A DNA stretch of 64,000 nucleotides from Amoebophrya sp. A120. Taxonomy: Eukaryota > Protista > Dinoflagellata. The first letter of the stretch is position 1. Each line of letters begins with the position of its first letter. A program made the position numbers and the translations under genes. The notes below the pieces were generated by a model. The model did no database searches. It saw only the letters and a program-made list of their open reading frames with translations, and had not been told where the DNA came from. Positions 3,001 to 60,164 of the stretch are shown here, in pieces. Where the stretch lies: assembly GCA_905178155.1 (NCBI GenBank), contig CAJINV010000010.1, positions 1,087,486-1,151,485 on the forward strand, written 5' to 3'.

Positions 3001-5376
3001 GCGAGCCCTAAAATGTCCCCGGCAGCTCCGAGCGGCGGCAGGGAAAATCAAGTCGTAGTCTGTGGCGGTGAAATGATCCAGAAATGCAACACAACACACA
3101 CGACCCACAGCGAGGCGCTGAGGACCTATAACGGTCGTGTCGACCACCGCTGCACGGAAAAGAACTACGACAGTACGCTGTTGCAAGATGAGGAGGACAA
3201 CAAGATCACCAAAACTCGATCGGAGGAAGAGATTGGGGACTTGGAAATGAGCGAGCACCAGGCGGTCGCGGTACTGGAAGATGTTAACCCGGTCGTCGTG
3301 TTTAATAATGGTAGTACTGGCGATGGACAGCAGGAACAGCAACCGCAAGACTATTCCGCCCAAGAGAACCACACTTTCGAAGACGCCGAGCAGTCGAACG
3401 CAGAAGAGATGCACAGTCTTGACCACCAGAGTTTCGTCGAAGGGCAGCATAGCAAAATGAACCAGAACTCCGCCGCGGACGACGATAGCGAAGATGCTGA
3501 GCAGAAGAACAACAAGCCCTTATCGGTCCGGGTCGTCGGACTAGCCCCGGCTTCCCCCGAGCGGGAAACGAGTCAGCTGAGCATACAGCAAAACGTCACG
3601 GAAGATTCCGGCGGAATCATGCAGTCAACCTTTATAAAGTCCAGCGAGAAACTATGAAAGTGCACAACTCCCCCTCATTTGTATTGCATGCACAGCAATA
3701 TTACAAGCGTTAGAAAGAATACAGTTTTTGCATGCCAAATTTAGACAGGCGTGTAGTGCTATTTGGGCTGCCAGAACTTGCCATGCATACAGTGCTAAGA
3801 GCCAAGGCGTAAGTTAGGCACTTTGCATGACAAACGAGTGGGGGGGCTGTGCACTTTCATAGAAACTCCGAAAGAAGATGTCGCACTACAGCGGCATGAT
3901 AGAATCCCGACTGAAGAACAACCGAACGGGAGGATTACTTGTCGGGTCGACGTTTCTCGGTGGGGTGGACGACATGACGAACAAGGCGAATGGTACAGCA
4001 GGAGGAGGTGTAAATGAAAACAAGCCGAATGTCGAGTACGCACTGGTACAGGCGACGTTGATCAAGCATCTGTGCACGAACGTGAAGAAGAAGATGATGA
4101 ACGTGATGCGCTTGTCACTCCTTATGCAGATTCTGGCGCTGGGGTTCATCGCGGCGGCAATCATCATTGAGGGCAAGGAGTTCATCGATTTGGCCATCAA
4201 TTCCGATATGGTGGCGAGCATCATGCTGCTCTATGAACTGCAAAAGTATCGTACTAGTAGTAGTAATTGCAACACAAATTCGCTCAGCGTGACAAATGGA
4301 ATTTGTCATGCTTATTTAGCTTGAAAAAGAAATCTGTCTTGCATGACTGCGATTAGTACGAGTACGATACTTTTGCACAGGATATGCTCTTCGCGGACGC
4401 AATGATCAACAAGACCATGATGGACCTTATCACTATCGATTTCCAATTCGGAGCGTTTATGCATTGCAAATGTGTCTTGGTCATCTGGAGACACGCAAAC
4501 TTGTCTGTGATGCGTATTTTAGATCACACGAAAATCTGTCATGCATAAACAGCAAGAGCATCGATCCCGTTACCGTTTCTTGTCACCGAGAGCGGAAATT
4601 TGTCATGCGGATTAAGCATTGGTAGGCGCTTGAAAAACCTGTGATGCTAGGGCTTGCATGGCAGACCTTGAGGGTCAAGCAGAGACAGCATGACAAACAG
4701 CTGTGCTCATCCAGACCAAGATAAATTTGCATTTGATAGCGTTGGTCAAAATGCGATTGTACAATGGCTACATGTCCGACGATCAGGACCTGTCCAACCT
4801 GGCGGTCCTTTTCAAATTTTCCGACGCCTTAAACGAACATTTCTGCAAGGGCATCCTCCGGGCGCAGGCCAAGGAGCAGCAGAAGCGGAGCGGGGACAAA
4901 AACGAAACGGATGGGAACAGTGCTACTACGAAAAACCCGACGTCGGTCGGCGCCAAGGGAAGTAGCGCCGCGTATTACAATGAAAAATGCCCCCACGACC
5001 CCCGAACTTGGGAGCATTTGTATTGCAAACCTTTCCAAGTGAAACACTCGCCCTCTTGCATCTATCAGCATCACAGGTTTCCAATCGTGAATAGCAAAAA
5101 TTTGTATTGCAAAAAACCCCAGCAAGAGCGGCGCTTGTCATGCAGGCGATGCGATACACGCCTAGACTCTGCATCAGAAAGATTCACACTCCTTTCATGC
5201 ATGACAAAAAGTTTTCATGTGGAAGCTTCGCATCACAAATTTTTGCAACTTCAGGGGTGGAAGGCATTTTTCACTGTAATACCGCGAAGAATTTGTTTAC
5301 CGCGCCGGTGTCGTTTGTGGCGAACAAAATGGTCTCCGGGGTGAGTCCGCGCTCGAAAAAGGAATGCGTGGATTGA
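26..5376 (+). CDS. Hypothetical multi-pass membrane protein, 3' part (5' end outside window), split by 8 complete introners
   Basis: Exons ~26-192,451-488,604-829,2610-2641,2914-3652,3867-4231,4390-4457,4744-4972,5287-5376 join in one frame after removing each element + one 5-bp DR: ...FAMSLIPGIAGGTMSVTEVLPFTIFPYFVMLC...EIYSRTNESKLEQLQHMAIQHY...KKECVD*. Several hydrophobic segments and an acidic low-complexity middle. Confidence 0.8.
193..445. mobile_element. Introner family A
   Basis: TIR TATCAAATGCAAAAATGTCTG...CAGACATTTTTGCATTTGATA; DR CATTC/CATTC. Confidence 0.92.
489..598. mobile_element. Introner family B (short)
   Basis: TATCCTGTGCAAAAGTATCG...CGATACTTTTGCAGTGCATA; DR AGGTG/AGGTG. 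Confidence 0.9.
830..2604. mobile_element. Introner family B expanded by a nested 1.6-kb insertion
   Basis: Family B ends at 830 and 2604; DR CTACT/CTACT; frame restored on removal. Confidence 0.88.
867..2490. mobile_element. Nested non-autonomous element inside introner
   Basis: Flanked by ATGCAT at 861-866 and 2491-2496; ends GCAG...CTGC with weak imperfect TIR; internal ~45-bp direct repeat (~1104, ~1378); no recognisable transposase. Confidence 0.7.
2642..2908. mobile_element. Introner family A
   Basis: Family A TIRs; imperfect DR AACTG/AGCTA. Confidence 0.85.
3653..3861. mobile_element. Introner family F
   Basis: TATGAAAGTGCACA...TGTGCACTTTCATA; DR GAAAC/GAAAC. Confidence 0.9.
4232..4384. 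mobile_element. Introner family B
   Basis: Family B TIRs; DR TGCTC/TGCTC. Confidence 0.9.
4458..4738. mobile_element. Introner family A (diverged)
   Basis: TATGCATTGCAAAT...ATTTGCATTTGATA; DR GCGTT/GCGTT. Confidence 0.88.
4973..5281. mobile_element. Introner family D
   Basis: TATTACAATGAAAAATGCC...GGCATTTTTCACTGTAATA; DR CCGCG/CCGCG. Confidence 0.92.
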
Positions 5377-9930: not shown

Positions 9931-10149
9931 GTTAGATAAGAGGAAGAGTCTTTCGGGGACAGAAAAGTTTCAGGACTTCGTGAAAAGAGATTTCCTCAAC
10001 CTGCTCGAAGAAAAGCAGGCTCTGAAAAATTTTCAACGCAAGGCCTTGTTTTGTGTTCTCAGAGTTGATTGAGTAGCTGGCTCAACAGTCGTCCGACGCC
10101 ATGAGGGTCCAGCTCTGTGCCTATCAGGCAATAGCCTCTTCGTTTTTTT

Positions 10150-11180: not shown

Positions 11181-11855
11181 GAAGATGCCGCTGATGTTGC
11201 TGTGCTAATATACGGCGCTCGCGCTTCTACCTTGAAGAAGAAACTCGGTTTGGATGAAAACTACAAGTTCGTTGGAATTCAAAATGAAAGATCGTTGCCA
11301 TTCGGTGTCTAAGTAATTACAAAAATGATACGGGTCAGTGGCTCCTTTTACTACAGATGATCCAGGATAAGTGCAGATCACGCAGACAGGAATTAAATAT
11401 AAATTTTGAAACAAGATCAAAAGCATAAATGTTCATCCCTGAAGATCCAGAGAGACGGAGACTCTGTACGAAGCAGAACTTATCTAGGTCCGACGTCGTA
11501 GCGGTAGTCGTGGTGGGTACCAAGCGTGGAAATCAAAGCCGTTCTTTCTCTAGATCCTTTTCCAGGGTACGACTAACGCATCTTCGATAGGCTTGAGATA
11601 GAGCTCTAAGCAACCTGACTTAATACCGGGAAAAAGTTTTCGTGTGTATAGGAGTAGCAGACAGGAGCTGTAGCAGAAGCAGTACTGATTCTTGCGGTAG
11701 CTTATGTCGAAATCATGTTAATATTCCGAATTCGAGTGTGGTTTTCCGAAAGCGAAAAGGTCCGCCTATGATATTTTCGCTTTAGATGAACATTCATCAG
11801 TCGAGTATCGTACTACACAATCAAATTACACAAACTTTCTTCGAATTAAAACGCT

Positions 11856-24099: not shown

Positions 24100-24834
24100 G
24101 TAGTGAGGTCACGAACGTTCTATCCTAGCGGTTTTTTTGACAGCTCTCATCCAAAACGACCGGCAGTTTTCAATCGGCCGGAAGCGTTTTTTGACATAAA
24201 AAATTTCCAATTATCAATCGGCCAGGGCTTTGCCAACAAACAAGCCCGGGCGGATTCTATCGGTTCCCGATGGATAAAACGACGCAGGGGAGCCGGCAAA
24301 AGGGACGCCCTTCCGAGGCGCCCAGCGCATCTGTTTCCGTCGATTTGGGGCGCCCAAAAAGGGACGCCAAGAAAATGCAAAGACGACAAAATCCCTGAAT
24401 CCGCACGGTATGGGCCGTATTTTGGCCCACTTTTGGAGGTCGCAAAGCCGGCCACCAAAAGCGGGCATTTGTAATGCGGGGAGTAGGGCAAAAAGCGCAA
24501 CTTTTTAACAAAAAAAATACAAAAATGCAAAGGCCGCCAAAATCTGTGAGCTAACCCGCATGCTACGGGCCCGATTTGGGGCGCGCAAGGGGCCGGCCCT
24601 GGCGGAGGCCCTTGGTGGGCCATAGCATGCGGGGAAAGCTTCCGGGCTTGGAAGAGACGAAGGCGGAGGCCTGTAGCTGTGATTTTTAGCATCCGCGACA
24701 CCATGCGGAGTAATCTTATACGCGACGGAATACTCGAGGCAAAGAACGCGACTACTTTGCTCACTGGTGGAATGCGCGAGAACGGTAACGAAAATGGGGT
24801 CGGGCAGTCAAAAAAACCGCGTTGACCTCACTAC
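24100..24834. mobile_element. Intergenic MITE-like TIR element
   Basis: TIR GTAGTGAGGTCA (24100-24111) / TGACCTCACTAC (24823-24834) plus subterminal GCGGTTTTTTTGAC / GTCAAAAAAACCGC; no TSD visible. Confidence 0.7.
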
Positions 24835-24951
24835 CCCCGCCTCGGCGGCTATATTTGGTAAGTTGTCCACCTTCGAAGAAGATTTAGTCGCTGACCCCCT
24901 CACCTCGCCCACACGACGAGTGAGAACAACACCTGTCGAAAGGAAAAAACT

Positions 24952-27900
24952 ATGACGGCTGCTGATGAAATAAATGGTGAAAATGCAGAACGGGGAACAA
25001 CCTCAACCCCTGAACAAGCAGCGGGCGATCAAGAACATGCGGCTTTCCTGCAAAATCATGACGAATCGGTGCTCCATTCCCTCAAAGTCGGCGTCGTCGC
25101 GGGTACGACCTGCGTGTGTGTCGGCTACCCGTTCGACACGATCAAAGTGCGGCTGCAGGCGGCGGCGGGTGCTGCAGGAGCTTCCCGGGGAAGAACTCCG
25201 GCAGGCGGAGGTGCTGGTCGTGGCTCATCGACGTCCTTCACCCACCTGTGGAAAGGCATTTCCGCACCCCTGCTCGTATGCGTTGCAAAAGTATCGTACT
25301 AGTGTACATGGCATTACAAATTTGCTCAGCATGAAAATAACTGGAACTTGTCATGCTGTTTTACCTTAAGAGCAAGACTTGTCATGCATATTGCAATTAC
25401 TACGACTGCGATACTTTTGCACAGGATAGCTCGGCGTGGTGCCTTCCTGGGCGATTTCCTTCACGCTGTACGGCGCCGCGCTGAAGTATGGCGCCCTCAA
25501 ACGTTACATTCTCAACTGTTACATGAATTTGTAATGCAAAAGTGTCATCAGCATCTATGTGATCAAGGTACTCCGCATGACAAACTGCCCAAGAGCTAAA
25601 CAGCATTGCAATCCGTTCCGAATTTGTAATGCAAAACGCGCAATCTTCCCGACCCGCTTTCGCTTTTGCTGTTATTGCATGAAAAATTTATGTAACAGTT
25701 GAGATCTAACGTTTGAGAACTCCATACGAAGTACCTCGAGTCCAACAGCATTCCCGCTTGCGCGCTTGCCGGCGGTATCAAATGTAAAAATGTCTGGGTC
25801 TGGAAGATTGCCAGGTTTGTCATGCACATTGTGCATCACTCCTGATGTCTGTGATGCATGCCCTAGCATCACAGATTTTGTGAGGGCTTCCTGATGCCTA
25901 TACCGCATGACAAATGCTCTTTCCGTGTAGCAAAACTTGGACTCTCTTTGCTGCTCATGCAATACAGATTTTTTTAGAATCCAAAATCAGCATCACAAGT
26001 TGGATTCTTTCAGACCCAGACATCTTTACAGTTGATAGGCGGCGTGGCGGGGGTCGGGTACGCGGTGGTGATGTGCCCGCTGGAAATGGTGAAAGTGAAT
26101 TATCAAATGCAAAACCATCGTACTACTTAGTTAGTAAAAATCGCATGACAAATTCGCCCAGAAGCATGAAAAATGGAATTTTCAATGCGGATTTAGGTTA
26201 AGAAGGAGATTGTGTAATGCATGGTTGCGACTACTACGAGTGCGAAGATACTGTTGCATACGATATTAGTTGCCAGGTGGCAAAGTCCGAGGATACTTTT
26301 GCTATGGCGAGACGGCTTTTCAAGATGGGAACTAGTACTTATCAAATGCAAATATGTCTGGGTCTGGAAGGTTGCAAGACTTGTCATGCAGGTTTTCCAT
26401 GACCCATGAGGTCTGGAATGCGGGACCCAGCATGACAGATTCTGCGAGGTCTCTATCATGCCTATCCTGCATGAGAAACTCCTTCTCAACTTGGTCAAAA
26501 GCAGACAGCTTTTGCTACTTATGCAACACAGATTTTTGCATGATTCAGATTTAGCATGACAACTTGCAATCTTCCAGACCCAGACATATTTGCAATGCAT
26601 AGTACTGAAGGCGGTGCAACAGCAACTACATCTACACCTCCGAAGATGATCTTCACAGGTGAAACAAATGGCACGAAAGGAGCATGTTTACAACCGAGAA
26701 CAAGTAGAACAACAAACACTACTTCTACACCTTTTTTCTCCGCCCGCCCAACCATTCTCTACCGGGGTTTCCTCGCGTGTCTCGCTCGCGATTTTAGCCA
26801 GGGCGTCGCCTACTACAGCCTGGCGGAATACTTGAACCGAACCCTCGAGGGTCCGCTCGGCAGCTTCTACGCCCCGCTGGTCTCCTATGGGGGTTTCAGG
26901 ATTGAGATCGTCAGAATTGAAATAGTTTGTCATGCATAAAATGCACCCCACAAAGTGCCTGTCTTGCAGAGTAGGCAAATGAGGCAGATTGTAAGCCTGT
27001 TGAGGGATAGAAACTGAGCTGCTAAAGTAGCACGACAAAAGACGTCTTACTTACCCAAAAAGCATGACAAACTGGATTTCGGCTCTACCCAAATTTGTCG
27101 TGCGCCACTTAGAAACTGGGTTACAACTTTCATCCATTTTATGCATTACAACTTTGTAGATTTCAATCCTGACGCATCCATATCTCCGGCGCGCTCACCG
27201 GAGTGGGGCACTGCACCGTGGAGTACCCATTTGACGTGGTGAAAACCCAGAGTATCACGAGAAAAAAGTGTTACAGTCACACATTGTGTTGCAAGCCCAG
27301 CATGACAGACAACCTCTGTCATGCCAGAAATGCTTCCGAGCTTCATTTCATACGTGTTTTCCCTTATGGTCTGCGCATTGCAAGTTTTCCTTCTCATGCG
27401 CAGAAAATTTGTGTTGCTGAAGTTACAACAACTGTGTATAACTGTAAACACTTTTTTCTTGTGATACAGAGGCAGGCATTGCTAGTAGAAAGTCTTGAGG
27501 TATTTAAACTAGGTGGACCACTTACAACCGATCGTAGTAGAAGTGAACTACAGGTAGGTCGCCAAGCCGCTCCTGCTGGTTTATTAATAAAGTTTTCATC
27601 GAACGGAGAGAATCATAAAAGCAGTAGCAGGCCACGACTTCCGGCTGTTGATACATTGATGTCAACAACTACAATATCCCACAAAAAAACTGTTTCACTG
27701 TGATGGTTTTGCAAGATCTGCATCACAAGTTTGTTACACATGACGCAGAAAATTTGCCATGCGCGTTTTCCAAGGGAAAACACGACTAAGATTCCATTGT
27801 GTTGCAGGTGTAGCAAGACAAACACTTTGGTGCTTCGTTCTCTGCATCACAGGTTCACAGTGAAACAGTTTTTCTTGCGATATACAACATCCTCCAACAA

Positions 27901-28581
27901 GAACCAAAACCACTGCCACGACGACCATCCTCTCCCGCCAGATAATCATATGAATTGCAAAAGTATCGTACTCGTATAAATGCATTACAAATCCCCTCAG
28001 CATGAGAAATAAATATAAAATTTGTACTGCGGATTTACCTTAAGAAAAGGATTTGTAATGCAAGACTTGCATACGAGTGCGATACTTTTGCACAGGATAG
28101 CTCAACAGAAGTCCTACCGCAAAATTCTCCGTACGATTTACCGGAATGAGGGCAACATTCGTGCGACGTTGCGGAGTATGCATTGCAAATATCGATCTGC
28201 ATCTGGGTCCGGAAGGATGCAAAGAAAGTTGTAATGCGCGTTTCACATCACACCAAAATCTGTTATGCGTGGATACATAACAAAAGTTGCGCACTTCATT
28301 CATCTGGCCACTAGCACTAAAAGAAGGGCTTTGTCATGCGCATTTAGGCATAATTTGGAGAGGACCTTGTCAATAAAACCTGTGAAGATGCTAGGGCTCG
28401 CTTGCCAGACCTTCTGGGTCATGCGAAACATTGCATCACAAAGAACCTCGTCTGCATCCTTTCAGACCCAGATCGATATTTGCAGTTTATACGGAAAGGC
28501 TACTTTGTCTCCATCTCGCGCGCGGTCCTCGCTCACTCGGCGAGTTTCTCTGTGCTGTGCCAGTTACGCGGGTATTTGTGA
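24952..28581 (+). CDS. Mitochondrial carrier family protein (carnitine/acylcarnitine or basic amino acid carrier-like) with 10 introners
   Basis: Three Px[DE]xx[KR] signatures after reconstruction: YPFDTIKVRLQ, CPLEMVKVNCQ, YPFDVVKTQRQ; also LWKGISAPLLG, LYRGFLACLARD, GYFVSISRA; stop 28579-28581. Confidence 0.9.
25277..25428. mobile_element. Introner family B
   Basis: DR GCTCG/GCTCG. Confidence 0.9.
25487..25726. mobile_element. Introner family E
   Basis: DR TGAAG/CGAAG. Confidence 0.88.
25776..26037. mobile_element. Introner family A
   Basis: DR GGCGG/GGCGG. Confidence 0.9.
26101..26265. mobile_element. Introner family B (degenerate)
   Basis: Decayed TIRs; DR TGAAT/TTAGT; frame restored (VKVN|CQ). 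Confidence 0.8.
26340..26601. mobile_element. Introner family A
   Basis: DR GTACT/GTACT. Confidence 0.9.
26886..27182. mobile_element. Introner family H
   Basis: DR TCTCC/TCTCC. Confidence 0.9.
27253..27466. mobile_element. Introner family G
   Basis: TATCACGAGAAAAAAGTGTT...AACACTTTTTTCTTGTGATA; DR CAGAG/CAGAG. Confidence 0.9.
27675..27882. mobile_element. Introner family G
   Basis: TATCCCACAAAAAAACTGTTTCACTG...CAGTGAAACAGTTTTTCTTGCGATA; DR TACAA/TACAA. Confidence 0.9.
27949..28099. mobile_element. Introner family B
   Basis: DR AATCA/GCTCA. Confidence 0.85.
28177..28491. mobile_element. Introner family A (diverged)
   Basis: DR CGGAG/CGGAA. Confidence 0.85.
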
Positions 28582-42857: not shown

Positions 42858-43799
42858 ATGAGTGCTGGCAAGAGCTCCAACTCGGCCCAACATCCGGAAG
42901 ATGAAAGAAATGCCTCTATCCTGTGTAAAAACGTCCCCACCCCAGAGTTGTCATGCAAATCTGCATGCTCAAAAGAAAATGTTTGTTATGCGGGGGCTGT
43001 CGCGCTCTGTATTTTAGGCAGTTCGCGCTCTGTATGTTATCGTTCTGTATGTTGGGCTGTCGCGCTCGGCTAGCTGGCCGGGCTGTACTGATCAGGTGTG
43101 GTGGGTAGCTCCCGACTGGTTGGCACCTTTATTGGGGCGACTTGCTGTGGTAGCGCTCGGCTTTTGTATGTTGAGGTCGCCGAAAGTGCTTCCTTGCCCA
43201 CCCCCCGGGGAGGGGATCCTTGACCTGTGGCGCTGGGTGCGGGTGTCCACTACATGATGATGATGATGATGCGGAGACACATGAAAAGCCTTTTCTTGCG
43301 CGCTTTGGAATTTGTAATGCGCCAATCAGCATAATACACTAGATCTGTGATGCTGCTGAACTACCTCAAACAGCACTACACTGCGATTCCAAATTTGTCA
43401 TGCAAAACAGCCAAAACTCGCGGAGTTGTCTAGCGCATTCCCCATCTTGACTCTGGTATGGGGACGTTTTTGCTCAGGATAGCCTCTAGTACAACAACAT
43501 CAACTGTGCACCCGGGGGCAACAACTACAGCACAACATCAACAAGATCTCCTTCTCCAGTCTCAGCTCGACGCGAAGGACCGGCAGCTCCGAGCAGCGCA
43601 GGGTGTGAATGATTTTCTTCGTAACCAAGTGGCGCGTTTCTTTGCCCAGCACGAGGAGGCAAAATTGCTCCTTCGAGGAATGGGGAGCGGCTCGCACCGG
43701 AATGAATTTTTTGGAAGAGCGCACGCGTTTGTGGACGGAGGACGGCTATACTCTCCAGCACGGGTGGAGGCCAGTATGATGAACAAGCACGAGTCTTGA
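42858..43799 (+). CDS. Short coiled-coil hypothetical protein, paralog A (possibly truncated or pseudogenised)
   Basis: Exons 42858-42916,43487-43799: MSAGKSS...QSQLDAKDRQLRAAQGVNDFLRNQVARFFAQHEEAK; homologous to 45315-46698. Confidence 0.55.
42917..43481. mobile_element. Introner family C with nested retroposon-like insertion (42994-43268)
   Basis: DR GCCTC/GCCTC; nested piece ends in (TGA)n and is flanked by ATGCGG repeats. Confidence 0.85.
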
Positions 43800-47585: not shown

Positions 47586-47991
47586 TATCAAATGCAAAAG
47601 TGTCTGGGTCTGGAAGATTCTGACACTTGTCATGCACGTTTTGCATGGACCCTGATGTCTGTGATGCGTGCCCTAGCGTCACAGATTTTTTGAGAGCTTC
47701 TTGATGCCTATTCCGCATGACAAATGCCCTCTCCGCGTAGGGCGTGGAGCGGGTGTCCACCTAGGGGTATTGGCAGAGGCTAAATCTGTTCTAACGCCAC
47801 GGTATCGGCAGAGGCTAAATCTGTTCCAACGCCGCCCAGACAGGAGTTAAAGGTCAACACACACACACACACACACACGCGTAGCAAAAATTACATTCCT
47901 TTTGGTACTCATGCAATACACATTTTTCTGGAATCCAAACGCAGCATCACAAGTTGCATTCTTCCAGACCCAGACACTTTTACATTCGATA
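47586..47991. mobile_element. Introner family A with nested 137-bp (CA)n-tailed insertion
   Basis: DR AGCAT/AGCAT; nested 47741-47877 flanked by CGCGTAG repeats. Confidence 0.88.
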
Positions 47992-49784: not shown

Positions 49785-52700
49785 ATGTTGCGTCAACATC
49801 CAGCTGCAGCGCCAAGCAGCATGATGAAAGAACCGGTTGTGGGTCATCAAAATCTTTTGCGTAGAAATAATTTCGGGGCCGCGTACTGCTACCTAGCGCT
49901 TCTAGGTGGATCATTTTACCGGGCCACAGCTTATCCACAGTAAATTTCCTGTACACGTACAAATGCTGTCTCTACATGACAAAATTTGCCTTCAGTCCTA
50001 GTCTAGCATGACAAGTTGTACACTGCAAGTTAGTAAAATTTGTCATGCATTTTGTACAACATGTACGGGAAATTTACATTGCATACAGCTGTCGTGATGA
50101 TGACGGGCAGCAGGAGTACAAATTCGAAACATATGGCAACGGCAAGTACTTTTTTTCAAAAAACTTTTTTTTTTGGCTACATATGAATCACCGGCCGTGG
50201 CGAGTAAATAGCTTTTTCCTAGCAAAAATCGAGTGCATGGCAACAATGTCAGCACTGGCATACTGAGTTCGTTAGCCTAAAGCCAGAGAGATGGCTGCAT
50301 TGGTGGCGCACTGTCTCACGGGTTCGGGTCCGTTATGTCCGGCGTACATGTTGGACGGCCAGCCCCTGCACTGCTGCTGCTTCAATGAAAGAAAAGCGCA
50401 GCCAGCCCGAGACCGGATGTGCTGCGCGTTGAAGTCAGTGGAGGGCCCACGCCTCAACAGGCGAAACAGACGGCGCGCACGGCTTTCGAAAAATTCCGAG
50501 CCGTGCGCGGCACTGCCGAAGACATTGATGCCGCGGCCGCAAATCTCTTTCGGAGCTGGGTCGCGGGAGGTGGTTCTTCGCCTTCGGCGGATTTTCCTGG
50601 AAAGTGACAGAACTCCTTGTGAAGCCGCACACCGAAATCCTTTTTGGGGCCCCCCGGAAGGCCCCCCAAACCCCCCCTCCTTTTGGGCCTTGGAAGACAG
50701 CTACTCCCCCTTGATATCCCCACGAAGGAGGGTCCCCCAAACCCCCCCTCAAGGGGGGGGCCCGGCCCCCCTTTTCGTTTCCGCAAGTTTGCTGCTTTTG
50801 GCGAGCTGCGTCCTTGAAAATGATAACCCGGATTCGGCCCCGAAGGAAAGTAGCACAATGCGGCCGGGAATAGAATCAAAGACAGCAGAGGCGTGAGCCT
50901 CCTCTGTTTTTCTTTCGTAGGGCACTTCGAAAGCTAGGGCGGGCCACGTCTCGTAGCCGTGCTCGTTTGAGATTGCCGCCCTCGAGAGAACCAGTCAGGG
51001 CTGTGGTGACTTATCTTGAGTCCCCTTTCGATACCCCAAAGCCGCGGCGGGGGGCTGGCGTGCTACCTGCCTTGGGGCTAAAGCGTTGAAGACCGAACCC
51101 AAGGTAGCGTCTGCAGCCGGGACGGCCTCCCTTCAGCCTTCGGGCCAGCAAGCTATCACCTAACCCGCGCCGAAGCTTTTCTGCTATTCTACTCTGCGCA
51201 TACCCGCTGGCATGCCTATAAAGTGCCGTGAAATCATATGTAGCAAAAAAAAAAAGTTTTTTTGGAAAGAGTCTTTACAGTGATGATGACGAGCAGCAGG
51301 AGTACAAATTTGAAACAAAAAAGCGTTATGTCTTCAACGGGCGTTAGCATACAGAAGGGTGAATTTGCAGTGAATTTGTATTGCGTGGCATGATGCATGA
51401 ATTAAGGGGCATATGAAGAACACGAGGAGGACGCCAGGCAGTCCGCGTTCCGTGTAGTTGAAAGGCTAGCACTTGCCTGGTGCCATTTGGATGGTGACGC
51501 TCACTGTCAGAGCCTAAAGTAGAGACGCACGTCTTTGCTGCCTGGTGCGTTGCCAAGAAGCAAAGGCGGCCTGTGGCGGTCTCACAATATAACACTGCCT
51601 CTGCGGAGTCCATAGTGGGTCGAGAGGGAGGGGGCCGAAGCCTCAACAGGAGAGGGGCACTGGGTCAACATCTAAGTGGGTAGCTCTCACGGGTTGTGGC
51701 TGGCTCGGCTTGGATGTCTGGAGACATGTTGCAATGGATGCTAGCATCGCCTGCGTTGCTCTGTAGCTCGCATCTTCCCTGCTGTGTTCCTGCCCCATCT
51801 TGTTCGGGTCCTCTAGTTTTCTTCGACGTGATCCCCAGGTCAGAAATTCTCCTGGTGAATTTTGAGGCTTTTTCTTTTTGTTAAACTTTTCTGGAGCTCC
51901 AAAACCCGCAGTTTCTCATGCGCTGCCGGATAGACGCGCCTGCCGGAGAGATCACGCGCCTGCCGGATAGACGCGTCAAAGCTCTCGGCCGGGTCCTTTC
52001 GCCCTTGCTTTCGCGCCTTCGTCTTGCCTAATTGCATGCGCTCCGCGGCCCTTGTTTTTGACGTCTTTGCCGCCGCTGTTGCAGTGCTCTTATGCGAGCA
52101 CAGGAACAAGGCGCAAGGACATGGTCAAAGAACGACGCCCAGGCCATGTCCAGTTGCCCACTGCATAGCCGGCGAGTTCTGCGGTGTGCAGAACGCTCTT
52201 CCCAGAAGGGCAAGAGGGACAATGTCCCGGCGGACTCATCTGCAATTTGTCATGCAAAATTCACTAGAGATTCGCCACGTCTCATGCTAACGCGTGTTAA
52301 AGCTCTAGAAAAAGCGACGTAGAGATGATGACGGGGAGCAGGAGTACAAATTCGAATCAAAAAAGCGACGTAGAGCAGAAAAACCTCATCTCAGCTGGGA
52401 GATCTGGCGCAACTACTTGGAACCACGACCACGGGCGCGCGGATGAAATGGAGGAAACGACTGCGCTTGCGTCAGATAATATTTTGAAAAATAGATCGCA
52501 CGACGAGGTGGGCCCCGCCTCCACTCTGCTCCAGCTGGATAAAAAACTACAGGAAAAGGAGGGGCCCGAAGACGAGGACCAGGCTCGGGAAAATGGAGAA
52601 TTTCGGAGGGCTCCTTCCGCGGCCCCCAAGCGAACGTATGGAGCGACCTATGCCCTCGCCACGTTTGGGCGAGACATGAGCGCCGATCAAGAGGAGCAGG

Positions 52701-55700
52701 CCGCGGGGACAGGAGTATGAATTGCAATTATGTCTGGGTCTCCTGGAAAGATGCAAGGTTTGTCATGCTCTGCTAGCATGATTCTCAGGCTTGTCATGCA
52801 GAGTAGACAAGAACGCTGCAGCATCTCCAAAACTTGTCATGCTTGGCAGCCAATTGAGGCGTGCTCCTCTTTGTCCAACCACCATCACAAGTTTCCAGAC
52901 CCACACATTTTTACACTTGATAAGGAGGGCGACAAGACAACTTCCTTGATGAAAATCAGGAAACCTCCGAGGGCCGCGCGGAACTGTACTCAGCACTGAG
53001 TTTCAATTCCCAAGAAGTAATATCCTGTGCAAAAGTATCGCATTCGTACAAATGCAATACAAATTTCCTCAGCATGAGAAATAAAATCTGTCATGCAGAT
53101 TTACCTTGAGAAAAAAATTTGCAGGACCGCAATTACTACGAGTACGATACTTTTGCACAGGATAAGTAACCTGCCCTTTCGATCGGACGTGGAGCACTGA
53201 CATGAAGCTGGCGTGCGAGGTTCTCCGGGACGTGTATCAATTGCAAATGTTTCTGGGTCTGGAAGGTTGCAACTTATAATGCTGTCTTTGGATTCCAAAA
53301 AAATGAAAACCTGTATTGCATGAGCAGCAACAGGAGTCCAGTTTGTGTTACGAGGAGAAGGCGTTTCGCATGCGGAATAGGCATTAGAAAGCCCTCTAAA
53401 AATCTGTGATGCTAGTAGATCATGCATTACAGGCGTCATGGATCATACAAAATATGGATATGCATGACAAACCTGGCAAACTTCCAGACCCAGACACATT
53501 GGCATTTGATAACGTGTACCACTTTGCAACACACACGGTGCCCACGAGTCTGACTGCAGGTGGGACGACTTCTGCTCCCGGCACCACGAGGGCCGACAAA
53601 AAGCTCGAGACGGCTTCTGTTAACACGTTTGCACGCTCGGGCGCCCAGATAGCCATGGTGCAGGATCTGTTTTCTTTAGATGAAACACTACGCAGTGCCG
53701 GGAATTTCGACCTGAATATGAAGGCAGCCAGCGTGGATGAAAGCATCGGCACCCGGTACGACCAGATTGCGGGGAGTGCGCTGGGCACCCGGACGGACAC
53801 GCTGTACAGTAGTCTGGTAACGCACTACTACGGAGCGCAGGGTGAGTCCGTATCAAAATGAAAAGTCCCCCCTCCCCATATCGAAAGGGGAGTCTGTGAT
53901 GCTGTATTTGCGTACACAAATCAGCTTTGTCTTGCAGCAGAGCACTCCAGGCAGATACAAAGCCCGGAAAGGGTGGCTTGAGGTAGGCACTTAGCGTGGC
54001 AGACGTCTGCCCCATTGGCGCAGCAGCATTACAAACCGCCTACGAAATGCGGCGGAAGCGCTGGCTTTGCTCTCTTGCAAGACATGCTCGATTTGTGACC
54101 ACAAACTGGCATCGCAAATTTTCAAAAGTAGGTGCGTCGCTTCGATATGGGGCGGGGGGATTTTTCCTTACAATAGTCTGCCAGCAGTCTCCAATTGGTC
54201 GGCGAGAACGGGGGGCCCGACCTGCCAGGCGCCGGAATCACGCCGGGCGTTATCAAATGTAAAAATGTCTAGGTCTGGAAGAGGAGAAGTTTGTCATGCA
54301 CATTTTCCATGATCCAGGATGTCTGTGATCTATGCCATAGCATCACAGATTTTTTGAGCGCCTATCGATGCTGATCCTGCATGGCAAATGCCCTCTCCGC
54401 GTAGCCAAATTTGAATCCTTTTGCTGCTCATGCAATACAGATTTTTTTAGCATCCAAATAATGCATCACCATCATCACAAGTTTGGCTCTTCCAGACCCA
54501 GACATTTTTGCATTTGATAGGCGTTTTGTTTGTGCAAAATGTGAAGATCTCGAAGCGCCGCGTGCTGCCCGAGGTATGGGACCTCACTCTCGGAGCATTG
54601 AGACACGCCCACGACCGTATTGGTATTTCCCCCCGATCTTTGAACTCGCCTCCACCACCGCCACCTCCTCCTTCTTTTCTGGACCTGCAAGAGGGACAAA
54701 GTAGAGTGAAAGAAGAGCTGGTGCTGGAGCAGAATACGGCAAGAAATAAAATCGGACTACCAGGATCTACTACTTCAAGGAGTGGTGCCGCTAGCGGCGC
54801 AACTACAGAGACACTACCTGCACTGCTGCCCGTCCAGGCGGGTTGGCGGGTGAACGAGGACTCTCAAGAAAATTACCACCGCTATCGCAGGACAAACGCC
54901 CCGGGTGCCGGTTTTGCAACGCCCCGGGTGCCTACACTAAAAGCCTACCAGGAGGCACTCGCGTTTCCCCCGGAAATTATCCGGCCTTTTCTCGCGACCG
55001 ATATCGTATTGAAAAACGTCCCCGCCGCCCCATAGTTGTATATGCAAACCTGCATGCTGAAAATGTTTGTTTCTCATGCGGGGCCCCATGAGAGGCATTG
55101 TCTGCCCGTGTTTTGGAATTTGTCATTCTCGAATCAGCACGATATACGAGAAGATCTGTGAAGATGCCGCTCCTGAGCTAGCTCAAACAGCACTACGCTA
55201 CGAGTCCAAATTTGTCATGCAAAGCATTGTCATGTTGCAAAACATAAACAGCCAAAGCAAAGCTCGTAGATTTGTCTAGCCGATCCCCATCTTGACTATG
55301 GGGTCGTGGGGACGTTTTTACATAGGATAACCGACCGGATTTCTTTACTCGTCCACAATGCCACTTTACCTGCGCTGCCTATTGTGAGGAAAAACCCCCC
55401 CTCCCCATATCATAATCGAAATTTCCGATGCTGATTTGTGGCGACAAATCAGATTTGTCTTTCAGAAATAAGTGCTTACCGGTATTTTCTAAGCCTGTTC
55501 GGGAGGTATGCAGAAGGCTAGCAATTAGGCATGGCAAACAGGTTTGCAGTAGTCGAAAGCGCATGACTGACTGGCTGTAGAATGCGCCCCAGGGCGCCCA
55601 TTACCCTGTAGACAAGACAGAGGTGATCTGTGACCACAGATCAGCATCACAAGTCTCCTTTTCGATATGGGGAAAGGGGATTTTTCCTTTTGATACTGCC

Positions 55701-58700
55701 CGGGAAGTATTCCAACAACCCTGAGCGAGCGGTGCGGCCCAAGGTGTATCTGCTGCAACAGAATGCTCACGGCTGGGGCATGACGTGGCTACCAGGGCCG
55801 AATGTTGCTGTGGAACGCGACGCCCCCCTTCTCGGTAACGGTTACAATCCGTTACGGTTTACGAACGCCATTACAACGGTTAGGGTAGACAACTTATCAT
55901 TTGTAAAAACGTCCCCGCCCCAGAGTTGAGTTGTAATGCAAATCTGCATGTGCTAAAAAAAAAAATGTTTCTGATGCGGAGACTGATAATGAAAGGCAGT
56001 TTCTGTTGCTGCCTTGCGATTATATCTGCTTCTCACATCCGCATGGTGTTGTAGATTTGTGATGCTGCTTCGCTAGCTAAACGCAACAACATTGCGAACT
56101 GAGTAAATCTCTCATGCGCAGCAGCCAGCGTTGGTTGATTTGTGTAGCAGATTTGCCATCTTGACTCTACTGGGGTGGGGACGGGTTTTGCTCACCATAC
56201 AACTACGTGCAGCCTTACTTTCAGGCGGCGATGTTCGCCCAGCAAGTGGAGGAGCAGGACAAAATCGTGGAGAAATGTGATGAGGAGGAGCGGGCCTGCA
56301 TTGTTGTGATCAATCTACAGGAGGATCTCTTTGTCGGCAAACGCAACCCAGATTTTAAGAAGAAGACCTCGGCTATATCCTGAGGAAAAACGTCCCCACA
56401 CCAGGGTCAAGACGGGAAATCTACTAGACAAATCAACCTACCAGCGCTGCTTGTTCCGCATGACAAGTTTGCCCTCGTAATGTGCTAATCCTGTTCAGCT
56501 ATTTCCGCAGCGTGGTCACAGATCTAGCATATCCCATATCATGCTGGTTCCAGCGTCACAAATTCCAAAAGACGCCGAAGAAAATGCTTCTCATGGGGCT
56601 TCGCATGAGAAACTTTTTTTGGCATGCAGATTGATTAGCATGACAACTGTTGGGTGGGGACGTTATTTTTCCTCAGGATAAGCTAATAGTACAGAACCAG
56701 AAGAGCAGGAGTATCTCGACGTGAAGCCTGTCCCGGGTGCCTACTGGACCGCGATGCTGCAGCTAGACCGGCTGGACGGCTGGAAAAGCATGTCGGACCC
56801 GCAGAAGTCCTACTACAAGCTTCCGGGAACACTCCACAGTCAGGTACCCAAAGAAAAACTGATTGTAGTACGTGTAACTTTTATTATTTTGGCGGAGCTG
56901 CTGCTGCATTGATTACAACTACAAGTCTGTCTGGCATGATGACAGCAAACACCTGTCTTCATGCGCAGATAGTCCGTGAAACTGAAAACGCGCCCGAATG
57001 GAGTTCCCTGTAATACATGACTAGCATCGTCACAGACGCAATCATCTTATGTGCACCATCACCAGCATCTTCACAGACGCATGACCTACAATCTTTTTTT
57101 GTGGGATATTTGTTGCTATGAAATGCAAAAATGTCTGGGTCTGCAAGAATGCGCGATTTGTCATGCTGCTTTTCCATGACCCATGAGGTCTGGAATGCAG
57201 GACCTAGCATGACAGATTCTGCGAGACCTTTCTCATGCCTGTCCTGCATGAGAAACTCCCTCCCCACTTGGTCAAAAGTGGACGACTTTTGGTAATCATG
57301 CAACACAGATTTTTGCATGCTGCAGATTTAGCATGACAAGTTGCAATGTTCCAGACCCAGACACTTTTACATTTCATAGTTGCTGCGGTCCTACCACGGA
57401 GAAGCGGTGAATGAGATATCAAAATCAAGAATCCCCCCACCCCATACTCACACTGGAAATTTGTGATGCCGATTTGTAACCACAAATCATGTTGTCATGC
57501 TAGAAGGGAACAGATGGGGACTGTAGTGCTGGCTAGCTTGGGAAAGCCTTGCATCTTCTTCAGCATGACAGGAGGCAGCTGGAAGTGGGAAACAGCATGG
57601 CAAATTTCTTCCAAACAAGGCCGCGACTGCGTCTCTTGCCCTTCTAGCAATGCAATCCAATTTGTGTACGCAAATCAAGCATCACAAATTTCCTGTCCGA
57701 TATGGGGAGGGGGGATTTTTCCTCTCAATATGAGACCGCAGTCGGCATACTGCACCCGTATAGTGCAGAGGAGATGCGGAAAATTGTTCAGAAGGCAGAG
57801 GCATTTGTGAAGAACAAGAATCTGCTACAAAAGAACCGTATGCAATGCAAATAAAGTATCGTACTGCACTACAAATTTTCGCCGTATCATGTTGGCATCG
57901 GATGGAATTTGTAATGTTGTTTTGGCTTTTTAGCTAGGAACGCGATTCGTTATGCCTATCTGCAATGAGTAGGGGTACTACGAGTGAGATAGCGATATAG
58001 TAGTACTTTCGCAATGCATAAGCCGCACCGAGGCAGATCGAATTCTTCAGGAAGCCAAGGATAAAAAGAGCGAAGCTCGGTGGTACACGATGACAGTGGA
58101 CGAGGAAAATGGATACGAACTGCTACTGGGAAATTCGGTGTACGTGAAAACCAGCCGAAAATTCCGTGTCAATTGCTTTGACATGGTGATTGACGGGCAG
58201 GGGTTCAATGACCGGTCGGAGGTGGTGTACAAAAATTTTGAAGAGTCGACCATCGGTATACTGCACTGAAAAATTCCCCCTGCTCGTCCCCAAAGAAACG
58301 GAATAAACGAACGAGATCTTTTGTGTAGCTTCATTAAATTTGTGATCACAAGTCACCGAAGATTCATTTAGGCTACAAGGGAAGTAGTAGTAGAGATGTG
58401 AACACCTGTAGTGCTGACTGAGACTGGCGTGGGGAACAAGCCTTGCGCTTTCAGCATGACAGAGAGGAAGCAACTGGAAGCGGACGACAAATTATTGCCT
58501 GCAAACGAGGCAGCTGCAAGTGCATCTCTTGGGCTTCTAGCAATACCAGTCGACCTGTGTTGCAAGTACGCAAATTATCCAGCGTGGACACAAATGTTCT
58601 TTTCGAGGATTATATGGGGAGCAGGGGCAATAACTTTTCTTCCCAATACGGAACGAAGTCTTTCGCGTATGGGGGTATCGAGTGCCGGGTCGACTTGTTT

Positions 58701-60164
58701 CAAGACAGTGAGTCGAGCTCCGCGTCCTGTTGCGGGGGGGACGGCAGCAGTGATTTTGTCGTGCCACAAGAAGACGTCGACAAGCAGCCACAGCAGTCAA
58801 ACGATCTTGGGCCGCCCCTTGACGGGGACGAGAACAAACCGCAAAGGAAAGTGTATGTGCCCGTGTTTCGCACGGGCTCGGCGCATCTGAGCGGCACGGA
58901 GTTCGACGACTTGAAAGAATTCTATGATTGCGTCAGGTTTGAAATCAACAAAGTTGAAATGATTTGTCATGCATAAAATGGATGCCAGTTCTTGGGACCC
59001 AGTTTCTAAGTGGCGCATGACAAATTTTCCGAGTACCGGAATCCAATTTGTCATGCTGTTTGGGCACAGACGGCTGCTTTTGTTATGCTCCTTTAGCAGC
59101 TCTACTTCAAACCCTAAACAGGCTGACACGCGGCCTCACTTGCCATCCCGGCAAGACAGGCACTTCATGCCTTGCATTTTATGCATGACAAATCATTTCA
59201 ACTTTGACGATTTCAAACCTGACGCTTCCATAAATTCTTGCAGTTGGCCGTGGAGGGACAAACCCTGGATGGGCAGAGAACCGAAAATATCATATGTAAA
59301 AACGTCCCCACCCCATAGTCAAGTTGGGGTCCTAGCAAGACAAATCCACAAGCTTTGGAAGCCACGCATGAGAAGTTGCAGTCCGTAGTGTAGGTGTAGT
59401 GCATGTTAGCAAGGACAACCGCATCACAAATCCATCTGTTTATCCTGTTTACAGCATTACAAATTCCAAAACGCGATTGGAAATGCCTCTCATGGAGATG
59501 CGCATTACAAATCTTCCTGTAGTCGCAAATCTGCACGACAACTATGGGGTGGGGATGTTTTTACTCAGGATAGAAAACCGCACCAAAACTTTGTATGAGG
59601 AAGAGAAGGACTCGCTGCTGCTTCCCTACATCCAGATAGACACTACGATGACGGCGCCGCCGCTCTGGACAAATTTTGTTGCGCGCTTACGTGTATGCAA
59701 TGCAAAAACATCGTATTAGTACAAATTGCATCACAAATTCCGGCAAGAACAGAACTGGAATTTGTAATGCTGTTTCAGGCTTAGAAAGAGATGTGCATGA
59801 ATGTAATTTAATATACGAGTACGATACTTTTGCACAGGATAACGTGAGAAGCGGAGGACTTACGCGGGCGGTGCATATCGCAAGAAAAAACTGTTTCACT
59901 GTGAACTTGTGATGCACAGAAGGCAACATCACAGAACTATTTGTCTTGCTCCACCTGCAAGACCTCGACTCTTTGACGGTGTTTTCCCTTTGGAAGCGCG
60001 CATGGCAAATTTTCTGTGTCATGTGTAAGATGAAACTTGTGATGCAGATCTTGCAAAATCATCACAGTGAACAAACAGTTCTTTCGTGGGATAGTGCACC
60101 CTTGGACCCTAGTGTTTTGGAGCAAGGCAAACTGATGCGCAGCGTTTTGGCAAGGGGGAAAAGG
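49785..60164 (+). CDS. Large hypothetical protein, 5' part (copy 1), with at least 18 introners, two kb-size TIR insertions and one canonical intron
   Basis: Continuous frame on element removal: MLRQHP...YCYLALLGGSFYRATAVV MMTGSRSTNS...CPFDRTWSTDMKLACEVLRDVYHF...GVLFVQNVKIS...KFRVNCFDMVIDGQG...GKLMRSVLARGK; no family recognised. Confidence 0.72.
49932..50085. mobile_element. Introner family J
   Basis: DR CAGCT/CAGCT. Confidence 0.9.
50131..51279. mobile_element. 1.15-kb TIR element inserted in coding repeat
   Basis: ~55-bp imperfect TIRs (CAAAAAACTTTTTTTTTGGCTACATATGA / TCATATGTAGCAAAAAAAAAAAGTTTTTTTGG); exact ends uncertain. Confidence 0.7.
51327..52307. mobile_element. ~1-kb TIR element with TA ends inserted in coding repeat
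   Basis: TATGTCTTCAACGGGCGTTAGCAT...AGTGAATTT / AAATTCACT...ATGCTAACGCGTGTTAAAGCTCTA; flanks both contain AAAAAGCG; exact ends uncertain. Confidence 0.65.
52716..52922. mobile_element. Introner family A
   Basis: DR AGGAG/AGGAG. Confidence 0.9.
53021..53164. mobile_element. Introner family B
   Basis: DR AGTAA/AGTAA. Confidence 0.9.
53235..53511. mobile_element. Introner family A
   Basis: DR ACGTG/ACGTG. Confidence 0.9.
53851..54175. mobile_element. Introner family I
   Basis: DR GTCCG/GTCTG. Confidence 0.88.
54251..54519. mobile_element. Introner family A
   Basis: DR GGCGT/GGCGT. Confidence 0.9.
55002..55329. mobile_element. Introner family C
   Basis: DR ACCGA/ACCGA. Confidence 0.9.
55380..55695. 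mobile_element. Introner family I
   Basis: DR CTGCC/CTGCC. Confidence 0.9.
55895..56199. mobile_element. Introner family C
   Basis: DR CAACT/CAACT. Confidence 0.88.
56376..56680. mobile_element. Introner family C
   Basis: DR GGCTA/AGCTA. Confidence 0.88.
56844..57076 (+). other. Canonical GT-AG intron
   Basis: CAG|GTACCC...TCACAG|ACG; phase-0 join TLHSQ-THDLQSFFVGYLLL is in frame. Confidence 0.7.
57117..57378. mobile_element. Introner family A
   Basis: DR GTTGC/GTTGC. Confidence 0.9.
57417..57730. mobile_element. Introner family I
   Basis: DR TGAGA/TGAGA. Confidence 0.9.
57839..58020. mobile_element. Introner family B (diverged)
   Basis: DR AACCG/AGCCG. Confidence 0.82.
58259..58648. 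mobile_element. Introner family I (diverged)
   Basis: DR CGGTA/CGGAA; frame restored. Confidence 0.78.
58923..59232. mobile_element. Introner family H (opposite orientation to 16391-16700)
   Basis: DR AATTC/AATTC. Confidence 0.9.
59288..59572. mobile_element. Introner family C
   Basis: DR GAAAA/GAAAA. Confidence 0.9.
59694..59841. mobile_element. Introner family B
   Basis: DR ACGTG/ACGTG. Confidence 0.9.
59876..60093. mobile_element. Introner family G (opposite orientation to 27675-27882)
   Basis: DR GTGCA/GTGCA. Confidence 0.9.

What the first reader, a model, noticed from the sequence alone, without database searches (positions are those of the whole stretch)
4973..60093. The same introner sits in both orientations inside sense-strand genes
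Seen: 4973-5281 and 62293-62605 are reverse complements of 21405-21709; 27675-27882 is the reverse of 59876-60093; 16391-16700 is the reverse of 58923-59232. All interrupt + strand genes with frame-restoring boundaries. Established: spliceosomal introns are polar (donor, branch point, acceptor). Inference: recognition depends on the symmetric TIR hairpin or on symmetric motifs, pointing to structure-guided or DNA-guided excision.
Basis: partly seen in the sequence, partly recalled or inferred. Interest (0 to 1): 0.85.

Follow-up and report, generated by a model that had tools for sequence, protein, structure and literature searches.

The report
Introns removed in either orientation
In a marine parasite whose transposon-derived introns were already known, copies of the same intron family sit in genes both ways round and are missing from the spliced RNA either way, likely because their two mirror-image ends, rather than the usual splice signals, mark a fixed cut position.

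Summary
Observation confirmed. The window is Amoebophrya sp. A120; the elements are its published TAT…ATA introners. The named pairs align far better reversed. Each of the seven has a 5-bp target duplication (TSD) and lies in a + strand gene. Orientation is unbiased: 9:9, 5:9 and 6:4 in the three largest window families, and 36:44 in another assembly. RNA-type contigs drop element+5 nt exactly, including both orientations of one family in one transcript. Two named elements rest on RNA joints, five on annotated proteins.

New here is a single register that fits every informative junction: N|TAT…ATA-NNNN|. TSDs are nearly sequence-free, GT–AG is mostly impossible, and no branch motif is enriched. 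I favour a strand-symmetric end code read on pre-mRNA, probably by a relaxed spliceosome. DNA excision is disfavoured; the machinery is untested.

The introners, the hairpin idea and two-way introners (Aureococcus, Polarella) are published, and this scan noted two-way introners on other DNA. Nine paper searches found no orientation or register statement for A120. New variant; interest 0.5.

The parts
4973..5281 (.). Introner, family 5 orientation A, TSD CCGCG; in the last coding part of the P0002 gene (+ strand)
   Evidence: junction peptide present in annotated P0002
21405..21709 (.). Introner, family 5 orientation B, TSD GGGAA; in the DXD glycosyltransferase gene (+ strand)
   Evidence: RNA joint 21399>21710 skips 310 = element+5
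62293..62605 (.). Introner, family 5 orientation A, TSD TACCG; in the P0001 gene (+ strand)
   Evidence: junction peptide in P0001
27675..27882 (.). Introner, family 11 orientation A, TSD TACAA; in the mitochondrial carrier gene (+ strand)
   Evidence: junction peptide in P0005; PF00153
59876..60093 (.). Introner, family 11 orientation B, TSD GTGCA; in the P0001 gene
16391..16700 (.). Introner, family 7 orientation A, TSD TTGGA/CTGGA; glycosyltransferase gene
   Evidence: RNA joint 16386>16702 skips 315 = element+5
58923..59232 (.). Introner, family 7 orientation B, TSD AATTC; in the P0001 gene
16728..17022 (.). Family 3 orientation A; removed from the same transcript as 20342-20633
   Evidence: RNA joint skips 300; interior vs 20342 scores forward 21.5, reverse 186, shuffle max 37
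20342..20633 (.). Family 3 orientation B; the within-transcript opposite-orientation case
   Evidence: RNA joint skips 297
19983..20288 (.). Introner with diverged TSD (AGGCG/AGGGT) that fixes the register: 4 nt of the left copy and the last nt of the right copy are kept
   Evidence: RNA joint 19981>20293 with no slide
21797..22181 (.). Worn introner (TAC...ATA, TSD 3 of 5 identical), removed exactly with almost no predicted end pairing
   Evidence: RNA joint skips 390
22260..22526 (.). Worn introner (TSD 3 of 5 identical); ends predicted to pair in a shifted register
   Evidence: RNA joint skips 272
24097..24853 (.). Introner upstream of the carrier ORF; cut 4 nt after the terminal ATA, 5 nt short of an available AG
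   Evidence: X3 contig pieces 23868-24095 and 24858-25271 are contiguous in the record (table 8)
15910..22560 (+). DXD glycosyltransferase gene with 19 introners; 479-codon ORF after removal
   Evidence: PF04488 E 3.4e-10 on one exon
24952..28521 (+). Mitochondrial carrier gene with 10 introners
   Evidence: P0005, 10 of 10 junction peptides
49786..63178 (+). Gene of the 1230-aa annotated protein P0001, no Pfam match; start coordinate read from the sequence
   Evidence: 23 of 30 junctions examined match, plus 49932

Best explanation
These are transposon-like elements that sit in Amoebophrya A120 genes in both orientations about equally and are missing, with one 5-base target copy, from RNA-type contigs in either orientation, likely because mirror-image ends (TAT...ATA on a loose stem) mark a fixed cut on the pre-mRNA that is probably made by a relaxed spliceosome. 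Step 1, shown from sequence: terminal inverted repeats, a 5-bp duplication of a nearly sequence-free target, and no orientation bias. Step 2, inferred: insertion by a TIR transposase or integrase encoded elsewhere. Step 3, shown by symmetry of the ends: either orientation presents 5' TAT-S-N6-AAAA and 3' TTTT-N6-S-ATA to the transcript. Step 4, predicted: the arms pair loosely and bring the ends together. Step 5, shown where TSD copies differ: the cuts fit 1 nt before TAT and 4 nt after ATA, so the mRNA regains the pre-insertion sequence whatever the element's length or phase. Step 6, inferred: a U2-type spliceosome that has dropped the G+1 and AG requirements but still reads U+2/A+3 does the chemistry and sets the 3' site by distance from ATA.
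For: Orientation: families 1-3 are 9:9, 5:9 and 6:4 (coding-only 5:9, 4:9, 6:4). In loci of another assembly they are 36:44, 11:7 and 5:6, among 142 strand-called of 245 elements (the caller was right 70, wrong 3, undecided 40 in leave-one-gene-out). RNA: 11 single joints equal element+5 and one double joint equals two elements (12 of the 15 rows shown, 1574 rows not shown). Symmetry: 5' and reverse-complemented 3' logos are nearly identical. Register, counted as nt kept of the left TSD copy: exactly 4 at 19983; >=4 at 21797, 22260, 24097 (RNA) and 26101 (annotation); <=4 at 18427, 28177 (RNA) and 61145, 62845 (annotation); none excludes 4. All nine top A120 non-canonical classes in Farhat Table S4 have T as second base, as this register predicts, and the nine A25 classes all start TT. 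For a spliceosome: U+2 is invariant as in GU donors; GT..AG at this register is 9 of 140 vs 2.6 expected in the loci, p 0.001, with 0-2 at other registers; the paper reports all but 6 of 89 spliceosomal proteins and 35% canonical introns.
Against: The GT..AG excess is not seen in the window (1 of 73 vs 0.9). No branch motif is enriched, and U1 snRNA was not detected in A120, so the spliceosome step has no direct support. No strand-specific sign of selection on the stem was found. Arm complementarity at positions 4-10 equals random within-family pairing (179 vs 179). 21797 lacks a predicted end stem. Only one junction fixes the register exactly; the rest are one-sided bounds. Three worn elements were delimited after seeing their joints. 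TAT/ATA invariance is partly built into my search. The RNA evidence is one study's contigs, whose kind is guessed by the tool, and the annotation may derive from the same RNA. P0001 reads into element 63178, and it treats 57117 as part of a GT-AG intron.
Confidence: 0.55

Rival explanations
1. The same symmetric end code is read on RNA by a separate, non-spliceosomal cut-and-ligate machine (structure-specific endonuclease plus RNA ligase), as proposed for euglenid non-conventional introns.
For: No G+1, AG or branch requirement. The ends are predicted to pair in 18 of 19 verified elements and exceed all 8 arm-shuffled controls in 17 of 19. A complementary triplet with fixed spacers mirrors the Euglena code N3-CDG...CHG-N5-6, where pairing was shown to be needed (PMC12501133 passages). 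U1 was not detected.
Against: Invariant U+2 in both A120 and A25. GT..AG excess at this register in one of two sets. 21797 is removed without a predicted stem. Positions 4-8 of the arms are often mismatched. No candidate enzyme was examined.
Confidence: 0.27
2. The elements are excised or marked at the DNA level (programmed elimination, or a cruciform or bound protein that directs co-transcriptional removal), which would be blind to strand.
For: The signals are fully strand-symmetric, with no G-U over A-C excess and equal folding of sense and antisense (37 of 68 lower in sense, p 0.39). A short motif chosen by eye occurs 314 times in 22,102 element bases vs 37 times in 41,898 other bases, on both strands.
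Against: DNA-like run X5 has depth 0 at all 12 joints shown and has contigs running through elements (its counts are incomplete, and contigs drop rare forms). X1 record 2 retains 19983 while its 6 unlaid letters lie where 19809 would continue, which fits a partly spliced RNA (inferred from lengths). The cut register is asymmetric (1 and 4) relative to the transcript strand. Symmetry is also what unbiased TIR insertion gives.
Confidence: 0.08
3. The joints are reverse-transcriptase template switches across the 5-bp repeats at the base of a hairpin, not introns.
For: Direct repeats plus a hairpin are the usual setting for this artefact (general knowledge; PMC2923612 abstract).
Against: Joined contigs are about 100 times deeper than retained ones where both are listed (627.7 vs 5.67, 1122 vs 14.5, 1186 vs 5.86; contig depth is crude). 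The 19983 joint has no shared letters. Proteins need the removal: retention shifts the frame or adds a stop in all but one element tested (27253), and homologues P0003 and P0004 align through the 193, 489, 4232 and 4458 junctions.
Confidence: 0.03
4. Each orientation carries its own conventional donor, branch point and acceptor.
For: G[TCA]-AG is possible in some register for 7 of 73 and 24 of 142 elements. The annotation uses the ATA+G end of 57117 as an AG acceptor.
Against: 66 of 73 cannot be canonical in any register. The 19983 joint does not use its one possible GC-AG register. At 24097 an AG 5 nt downstream is not used. YTRAY counts are 26 sense, 24 antisense and 25.5 in shuffles.
Confidence: 0.02

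Closest known systems
Amoebophrya sp. A120 introner elements (Farhat et al. 2021, PMC7789003; sections 10, 11, 16, 25, abstract, passages and supplement part 3 of 5 read; figures not visible)
   Same: Same organism. IR starts with TAT, then seven variable bases and at least three A; 5-bp direct repeats; repeated families; non-canonical ends; hairpin proposed; U1 not detected.
   Different: In the text I saw, the paper says nothing on element orientation (its 4 main-text uses of 'orientation' and the supplement hits shown concern gene orientation). It calls splice sites variable relative to the hairpin and reports no clear signature. Here orientation is unbiased and one register fits all informative junctions.
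Two-way introners of Polarella glacialis (e.g. classes 6, 8, 10, 3) and Aureococcus anophagefferens (bioRxiv 10.1101/2020.10.14.339549 passages; Huff et al. 2016 not held, known only through citing passages)
   Same: TSD-flanked transposons that make introns in either orientation and usually leave the mRNA unchanged.
   Different: They carry or recruit GT/GC/GA and AG sites from a constrained TSD (such as GHN6 or AGGH), and classes 6, 8 and 10 are biased to one orientation. Here the TSD is near background composition, most introns have neither site, and no bias is seen.
Euglenid non-conventional introns (PMC12501133 passages; PMC11282704 passages)
   Same: Complementary triplets at the two ends, fixed random spacers, an end-joining stem, TSD-like slidable borders, suspected MITE origin, unknown machinery.
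   Different: Euglena has N3-CDG...CHG-N5-6 followed by a purine. A120 has N1-TAT...ATA-N4 with no purine preference (40 of 70). The lineages are unrelated, so this is a working resemblance, not membership.
Fritillaria borealis non-canonical introns (review passages PMC11282704; passages of PMC13326754)
   Same: MITE-like introns with TIR and TSD and non-canonical ends, reported as removed by a modified spliceosome.
   Different: Fritillaria keeps dominant end classes (AG-AC, AG-AT). A120 keeps only U at +2.

Membership tests
Amoebophrya A120 introner element | Found in A120 | tested here: met
   Three exon queries are 100% identical to A120 proteins
Amoebophrya A120 introner element | IR starts TAT, seven variable bases, then three or more A | tested here: met
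   A at positions 11-13 in 59-65 of 70; TAT was required in most of my calls
Amoebophrya A120 introner element | 3-5 nt direct repeat at the borders | tested here: met
   5-bp perfect in 42 of 67 first-pass candidates, 0 at 4, 6, 7 or 8 bp; 48 of 70 coding elements
Amoebophrya A120 introner element | Repeated family, removed from RNA | tested here: met
   12 families; 12 joints in X1 and X3
MITE / non-autonomous TIR DNA transposon | TIRs, fixed-length TSD, no coding capacity | tested here: met
   8 ORFs from 3 long elements have no Pfam match
MITE / non-autonomous TIR DNA transposon | Cognate transposase with the same ends | not testable with these tools
   No genome held; Farhat reports none in A120; PMC12130899 reports TIR elements with integrase-like ORFs (passages)
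MITE / non-autonomous TIR DNA transposon | Empty orthologous site | tested here: inconclusive
   None of 163 loci matched the window's non-element sequence
U2-type spliceosomal intron | GT/GC/GA donor with AG acceptor | tested here: not met
   Possible in 7 of 73 in any register; at the fitted register GT start 25, AG end 6, both 1 of 73
U2-type spliceosomal intron | Branch consensus near the 3' end | tested here: not met
   YTRAY 26 vs shuffle 25.5; CTRAY 4 vs 11.6; the true A120 branch motif is unknown
U2-type spliceosomal intron | Lariat intermediate, snRNP dependence | not testable with these tools
   Needs lariat sequencing or inhibition
Aureococcus/Polarella two-way introner | Creates introns in either orientation | tested here: met
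Aureococcus/Polarella two-way introner | Canonical-type splice sites carried or recruited from a constrained TSD | tested here: not met
   TSD positions match flank background in the window (all p>0.7); one position deviates in the loci (A at 3, p 0.0009)
Euglenid non-conventional intron | CDG/CHG motif with 3 and 5-6 nt spacers, purine starting the next exon | tested here: not met
   TAT/ATA with 1 and 4 nt spacers; purine in 40 of 70
Euglenid non-conventional intron | End-to-end pairing | tested here: met
   Predicted in 18 of 19; whether it is needed was not testable

The most novel reading that the evidence does not exclude
A120 runs a second, genome-scale splicing code with no polarity in the element: any DNA between TAT and ATA arms is cut out at a fixed 1+4 register in either orientation by a non-spliceosomal or radically rewired machine. 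That makes TIR transposons harmless at any exonic site, converges on the euglenid solution, and would be a portable scarless intron.
Probability: 0.3. Interest if true: 0.85.

Novelty: new variant of a known kind. Interest (0 to 1): 0.5.

Why it matters
How Amoebophrya removes more than 60% of its introns without GT-AG has been open since 2021. Two results narrow it. Orientation does not matter, so the signal must lie in the symmetric ends and not in the interior. One register (N|TAT...ATA-NNNN|) explains the apparent scatter of splice-site dinucleotides as random target bases. That gives a rule for re-annotating A120, says where to look for branch points or circle junctions, and defines simple minigene tests (flip, break the stem, mutate TAT or ATA, move the spacers). 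It also explains why these elements could spread to tens of thousands of copies: every exonic insertion is repaired in the mRNA.

Tried and rejected
No whole genome is held, so the genome-wide table could not be made. The run search listed no holder on record as RNA; X1 and X3 are guessed RNA. Raw-read run X9 laid only 106 reads of 3.3 million and gave no junction data, so there are no read counts, strand or efficiency by orientation.

Selection for an RNA stem on the sense strand was not found (G-U vs A-C 43:59 and 80:93; folding energy and mirror pairing equal on both strands). Within-element arm matching exceeds within-family shuffles at positions 11-20 (374 vs 362, p 0.0004), but shared subfamily descent can give this, so I did not use it.

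Drift of intron +1 to G looked real in the window (6 of 9 mismatches at TSD position 5) but was not reproduced in the loci (2 of 4; at position 4, left G 7 vs right G 2). Rejected.

My first reading that 22260 has no end hairpin was wrong: it pairs in a shifted register.

The closest opposite pair, 16052 vs 57117 (93%), is not a clean test, because the annotation places 57117 inside a GT-AG intron.

Rfam gave 0 hits on the window and on 23900-24950. Pfam gave no hit on 8 ORFs inside long elements. No orthologous or empty site was found among 163 loci.

Dropped before counts: 60165, 60472 and 60665 (duplicated stretch beside the N); nine elements not placed in a coding model (8276, 29652, 29978, 38191, 38936, 43804, 47052, 47586, 57117) for the 'coding' counts; 103 of 245 locus elements without a strand call, and 19 of the remaining 142 without a family.

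Huff et al. 2016 was not held. PMC12621601 had 0 hits for the terms asked. Earlier-finding look-ups by place and by sequence were empty.


Full report
Observation. The named pairs are real reverse complements, with reversed alignment scores of 283-390 against 75-111 forward and negative shuffle means. The window is packed with such elements: I delimited 83, not counting three in a duplicated stretch. They run TAT...ATA, carry imperfect terminal inverted repeats, and are flanked by a 5-bp duplication (42 of 67 first-pass candidates perfect at 5 bp, none at 4, 6, 7 or 8). Three exon queries are 100% identical to proteins named Amoebophrya sp. A120, and the anatomy matches the A120 introners of Farhat et al. 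2021 (PMC7789003).

Orientation. Using element interiors only, 64 of 79 elements form 12 families with no orientation conflict. Eight families hold both orientations, and the three largest split 9:9, 5:9 and 6:4. Restricted to coding models they split 5:9, 4:9 and 6:4, none different from even (p 0.27-0.75). Host genes are on the + strand by Pfam (glycosyltransferase, mitochondrial carrier; weakly a cytidylyltransferase) and by annotated proteins. A motif scan gave 163 loci, the 80 listed all from one other assembly, with 245 distinct elements. A coding model (70 right, 3 wrong, 40 undecided in validation) called the strand for 142; family 1 splits 36:44, family 2 11:7 and family 3 5:6. Those loci were chosen by a family 1 end motif and have no RNA data.

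Removal. On 15001-35000, contigs of runs X1 and X3 (RNA by the tool's guess, one study) show 12 joints among the 15 rows displayed; 1574 rows were not shown. Eleven equal one element plus 5 nt and one equals two neighbouring elements. The length of one X3 contig matches removal of every element between its listed pieces (492=492, 564=564), so all 19 elements of the glycosyltransferase gene are gone from it. Among them, 16728, 17953 and 21040 lie one way and 20342 the other (interior scores 103-191 reversed vs 21-33 forward). This shows two-way removal inside one transcript without needing the strand. Of the seven named elements, 16391 and 21405 have RNA joints. The other five are supported by junction peptides in annotated proteins: 7 of 7 in P0002, 10 of 10 in P0005, and 23 of 30 in P0001. 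The seven misses are 57117 (inside an annotated GT-AG intron), three duplicated copies, 63178 (read into by the annotation) and two beyond the protein's end. The annotation was built from transcripts and may share RNA with X1 and X3.

Register. A perfect TSD lets a junction slide, but diverged copies fix it. At 19983 the joint keeps four bases of the left copy and the last base of the right. 21797, 22260, 24097 and 26101 need at least four; 18427, 28177, 61145 and 62845 allow at most four; seven weaker bounds agree. The intron is therefore N-TAT...ATA-NNNN, starting with any base plus T and ending with any two bases. Farhat's Table S4 fits: all nine top A120 classes are NT-NN and all nine A25 classes TT-NN. 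At 24097 the contig cuts 4 nt after ATA although an AG lies 5 nt further on. Only one junction is exact and three worn elements were delimited after their joints were seen, so the rule is the simplest fit and not yet proven genome-wide.

What carries the signal. The 5' arm and the reverse-complemented 3' arm have the same logo, and in family 2 one arm type changes ends with orientation. TSD composition matches flanking exon in the window; in the loci one position deviates. G[TCA]-AG is possible in any register for 7 of 73 elements, and branch-like motifs are not enriched. The ends are predicted to pair in 18 of 19 RNA-verified elements, but the stem is loose: positions 1-3 pair in 206 of 210 cases and 11-14 in 256 of 280, while positions 4, 5 and 7 pair in 35, 37 and 27 of 70. 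There is no G-U excess on the sense strand, and 21797 is removed exactly with almost no predicted end pairing. I read this as a motif-plus-proximity code: the stem helps, and the TAT and ATA triplets set the cuts.

RNA or DNA. Run X5 (kind not on record; DNA-like by its share of words and its contigs) shows depth 0 at all 12 joints and has contigs through elements, though its counts are incomplete. X1 record 2 retains 19983, and six of its letters fail to lie on the genome where 19809 would continue. That fits an RNA with 19809 removed and 19983 kept; it is inferred from lengths, as the letters were not shown. Template switching is unlikely because joined forms dominate about 100-fold in contig depth, one joint has no shared letters, and the proteins need removal. 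DNA-guided marking during transcription cannot be tested here.

Which machine. For a relaxed spliceosome: U+2 is kept in both strains, most spliceosomal proteins and 35% canonical introns remain, and GT..AG is in excess at this register alone in the loci (9 of 140 vs 2.6). Against: that excess is absent in the window (1 of 73 vs 0.9), there is no branch motif, U1 was not detected, and the code resembles the euglenid one, whose machinery is unknown. I put 0.55 on the spliceosome and 0.27 on a separate machine. Together these give about 0.8 for a symmetric end code read on RNA.

Comparison and novelty. The elements, their hairpin and the puzzle are published (PMC7789003). Introners that work either way round are published for Polarella and Aureococcus, but they recruit canonical-type sites from constrained TSDs. 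Orientation indifference and a fixed register for A120 were not found in nine searches, nor in the passages read of PMC7789003, PMC12130899, PMC9860276, PMC11282704, PMC11453091, PMC12005148, PMC13326754 and PMC10228655. The library lacks most subscription papers, and figures could not be seen. The introner screen of PMC12130899 required same-orientation similarity. Earlier notes of this scan describe two-way and position-cut introners in other genomes; I did not test them.

Verdict. A real feature in a known system with two added, testable properties. New variant of a known kind; interest 0.5.

Noticed in passing
window 34177-34862: A 686-bp element with TTA...TAA ends (A25-like triplet), a near-perfect repeat of about 50 bp and a 5-bp TSD. 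X1 and X3 contig pieces stop at 34171 while the records go on, which suggests it is removed from a 3' UTR.
   Followed up: partly
window 60213-60984 and 63229-64000; N at 61058: A duplicated stretch (760 of 769 aligned bases identical) beside an N, likely a misassembly. P0001 joins across it.
   Followed up: partly
window 830-2604: A 1775-bp family 2-type element with perfect TSD CTACT; P0002 has exons on either side of it. Other long elements with inserts lie at 29978-30971, 31908-32612, 42917-43481 and 47586-47991. No Pfam match in 8 internal ORFs of three of them.
   Followed up: partly
window 56847-57379: The annotated GT-AG intron ends at the ATA+G of element 57117-57378, so an introner end appears to supply the acceptor of a canonical intron.
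   Followed up: partly
window 24096-24150: About 100 raw reads of run X9, which otherwise hardly covers the stretch laid, match the 5' end of element 24097 with a different upstream flank. The family may be shared with another strain. Rfam negative.
   Followed up: partly
window 24838-24853: A 16-nt stretch between the 3' arm and the terminal ATA of element 24097 is predicted to fold out as its own small hairpin; the cut still falls 4 nt after ATA.
   Followed up: partly
elements throughout the window: A short motif of the TTGTCATGC type recurs on both strands inside all families (314 hits in 22,102 element bases vs 37 in 41,898 other bases; motif chosen by eye). It could be a transposase or splicing-factor site.
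   Followed up: no
window 20694-20706 and 21017-21029: The TSD and first 8 bases of element 20699 (TAC start) repeat as a 13-bp direct repeat with the following 23-nt exon.
   Followed up: no
window 41140-42043 and 11855-14318: Two intron-free + strand ORFs (300 and 820 codons). The first resembles a NADAR/YbiA protein (recalled, not tested).
   Followed up: no
window 42858-43797 and 45315-46696: Two paralogous genes with introners of different families at different sites (42917, 45502), in line with insertion after duplication.
   Followed up: no
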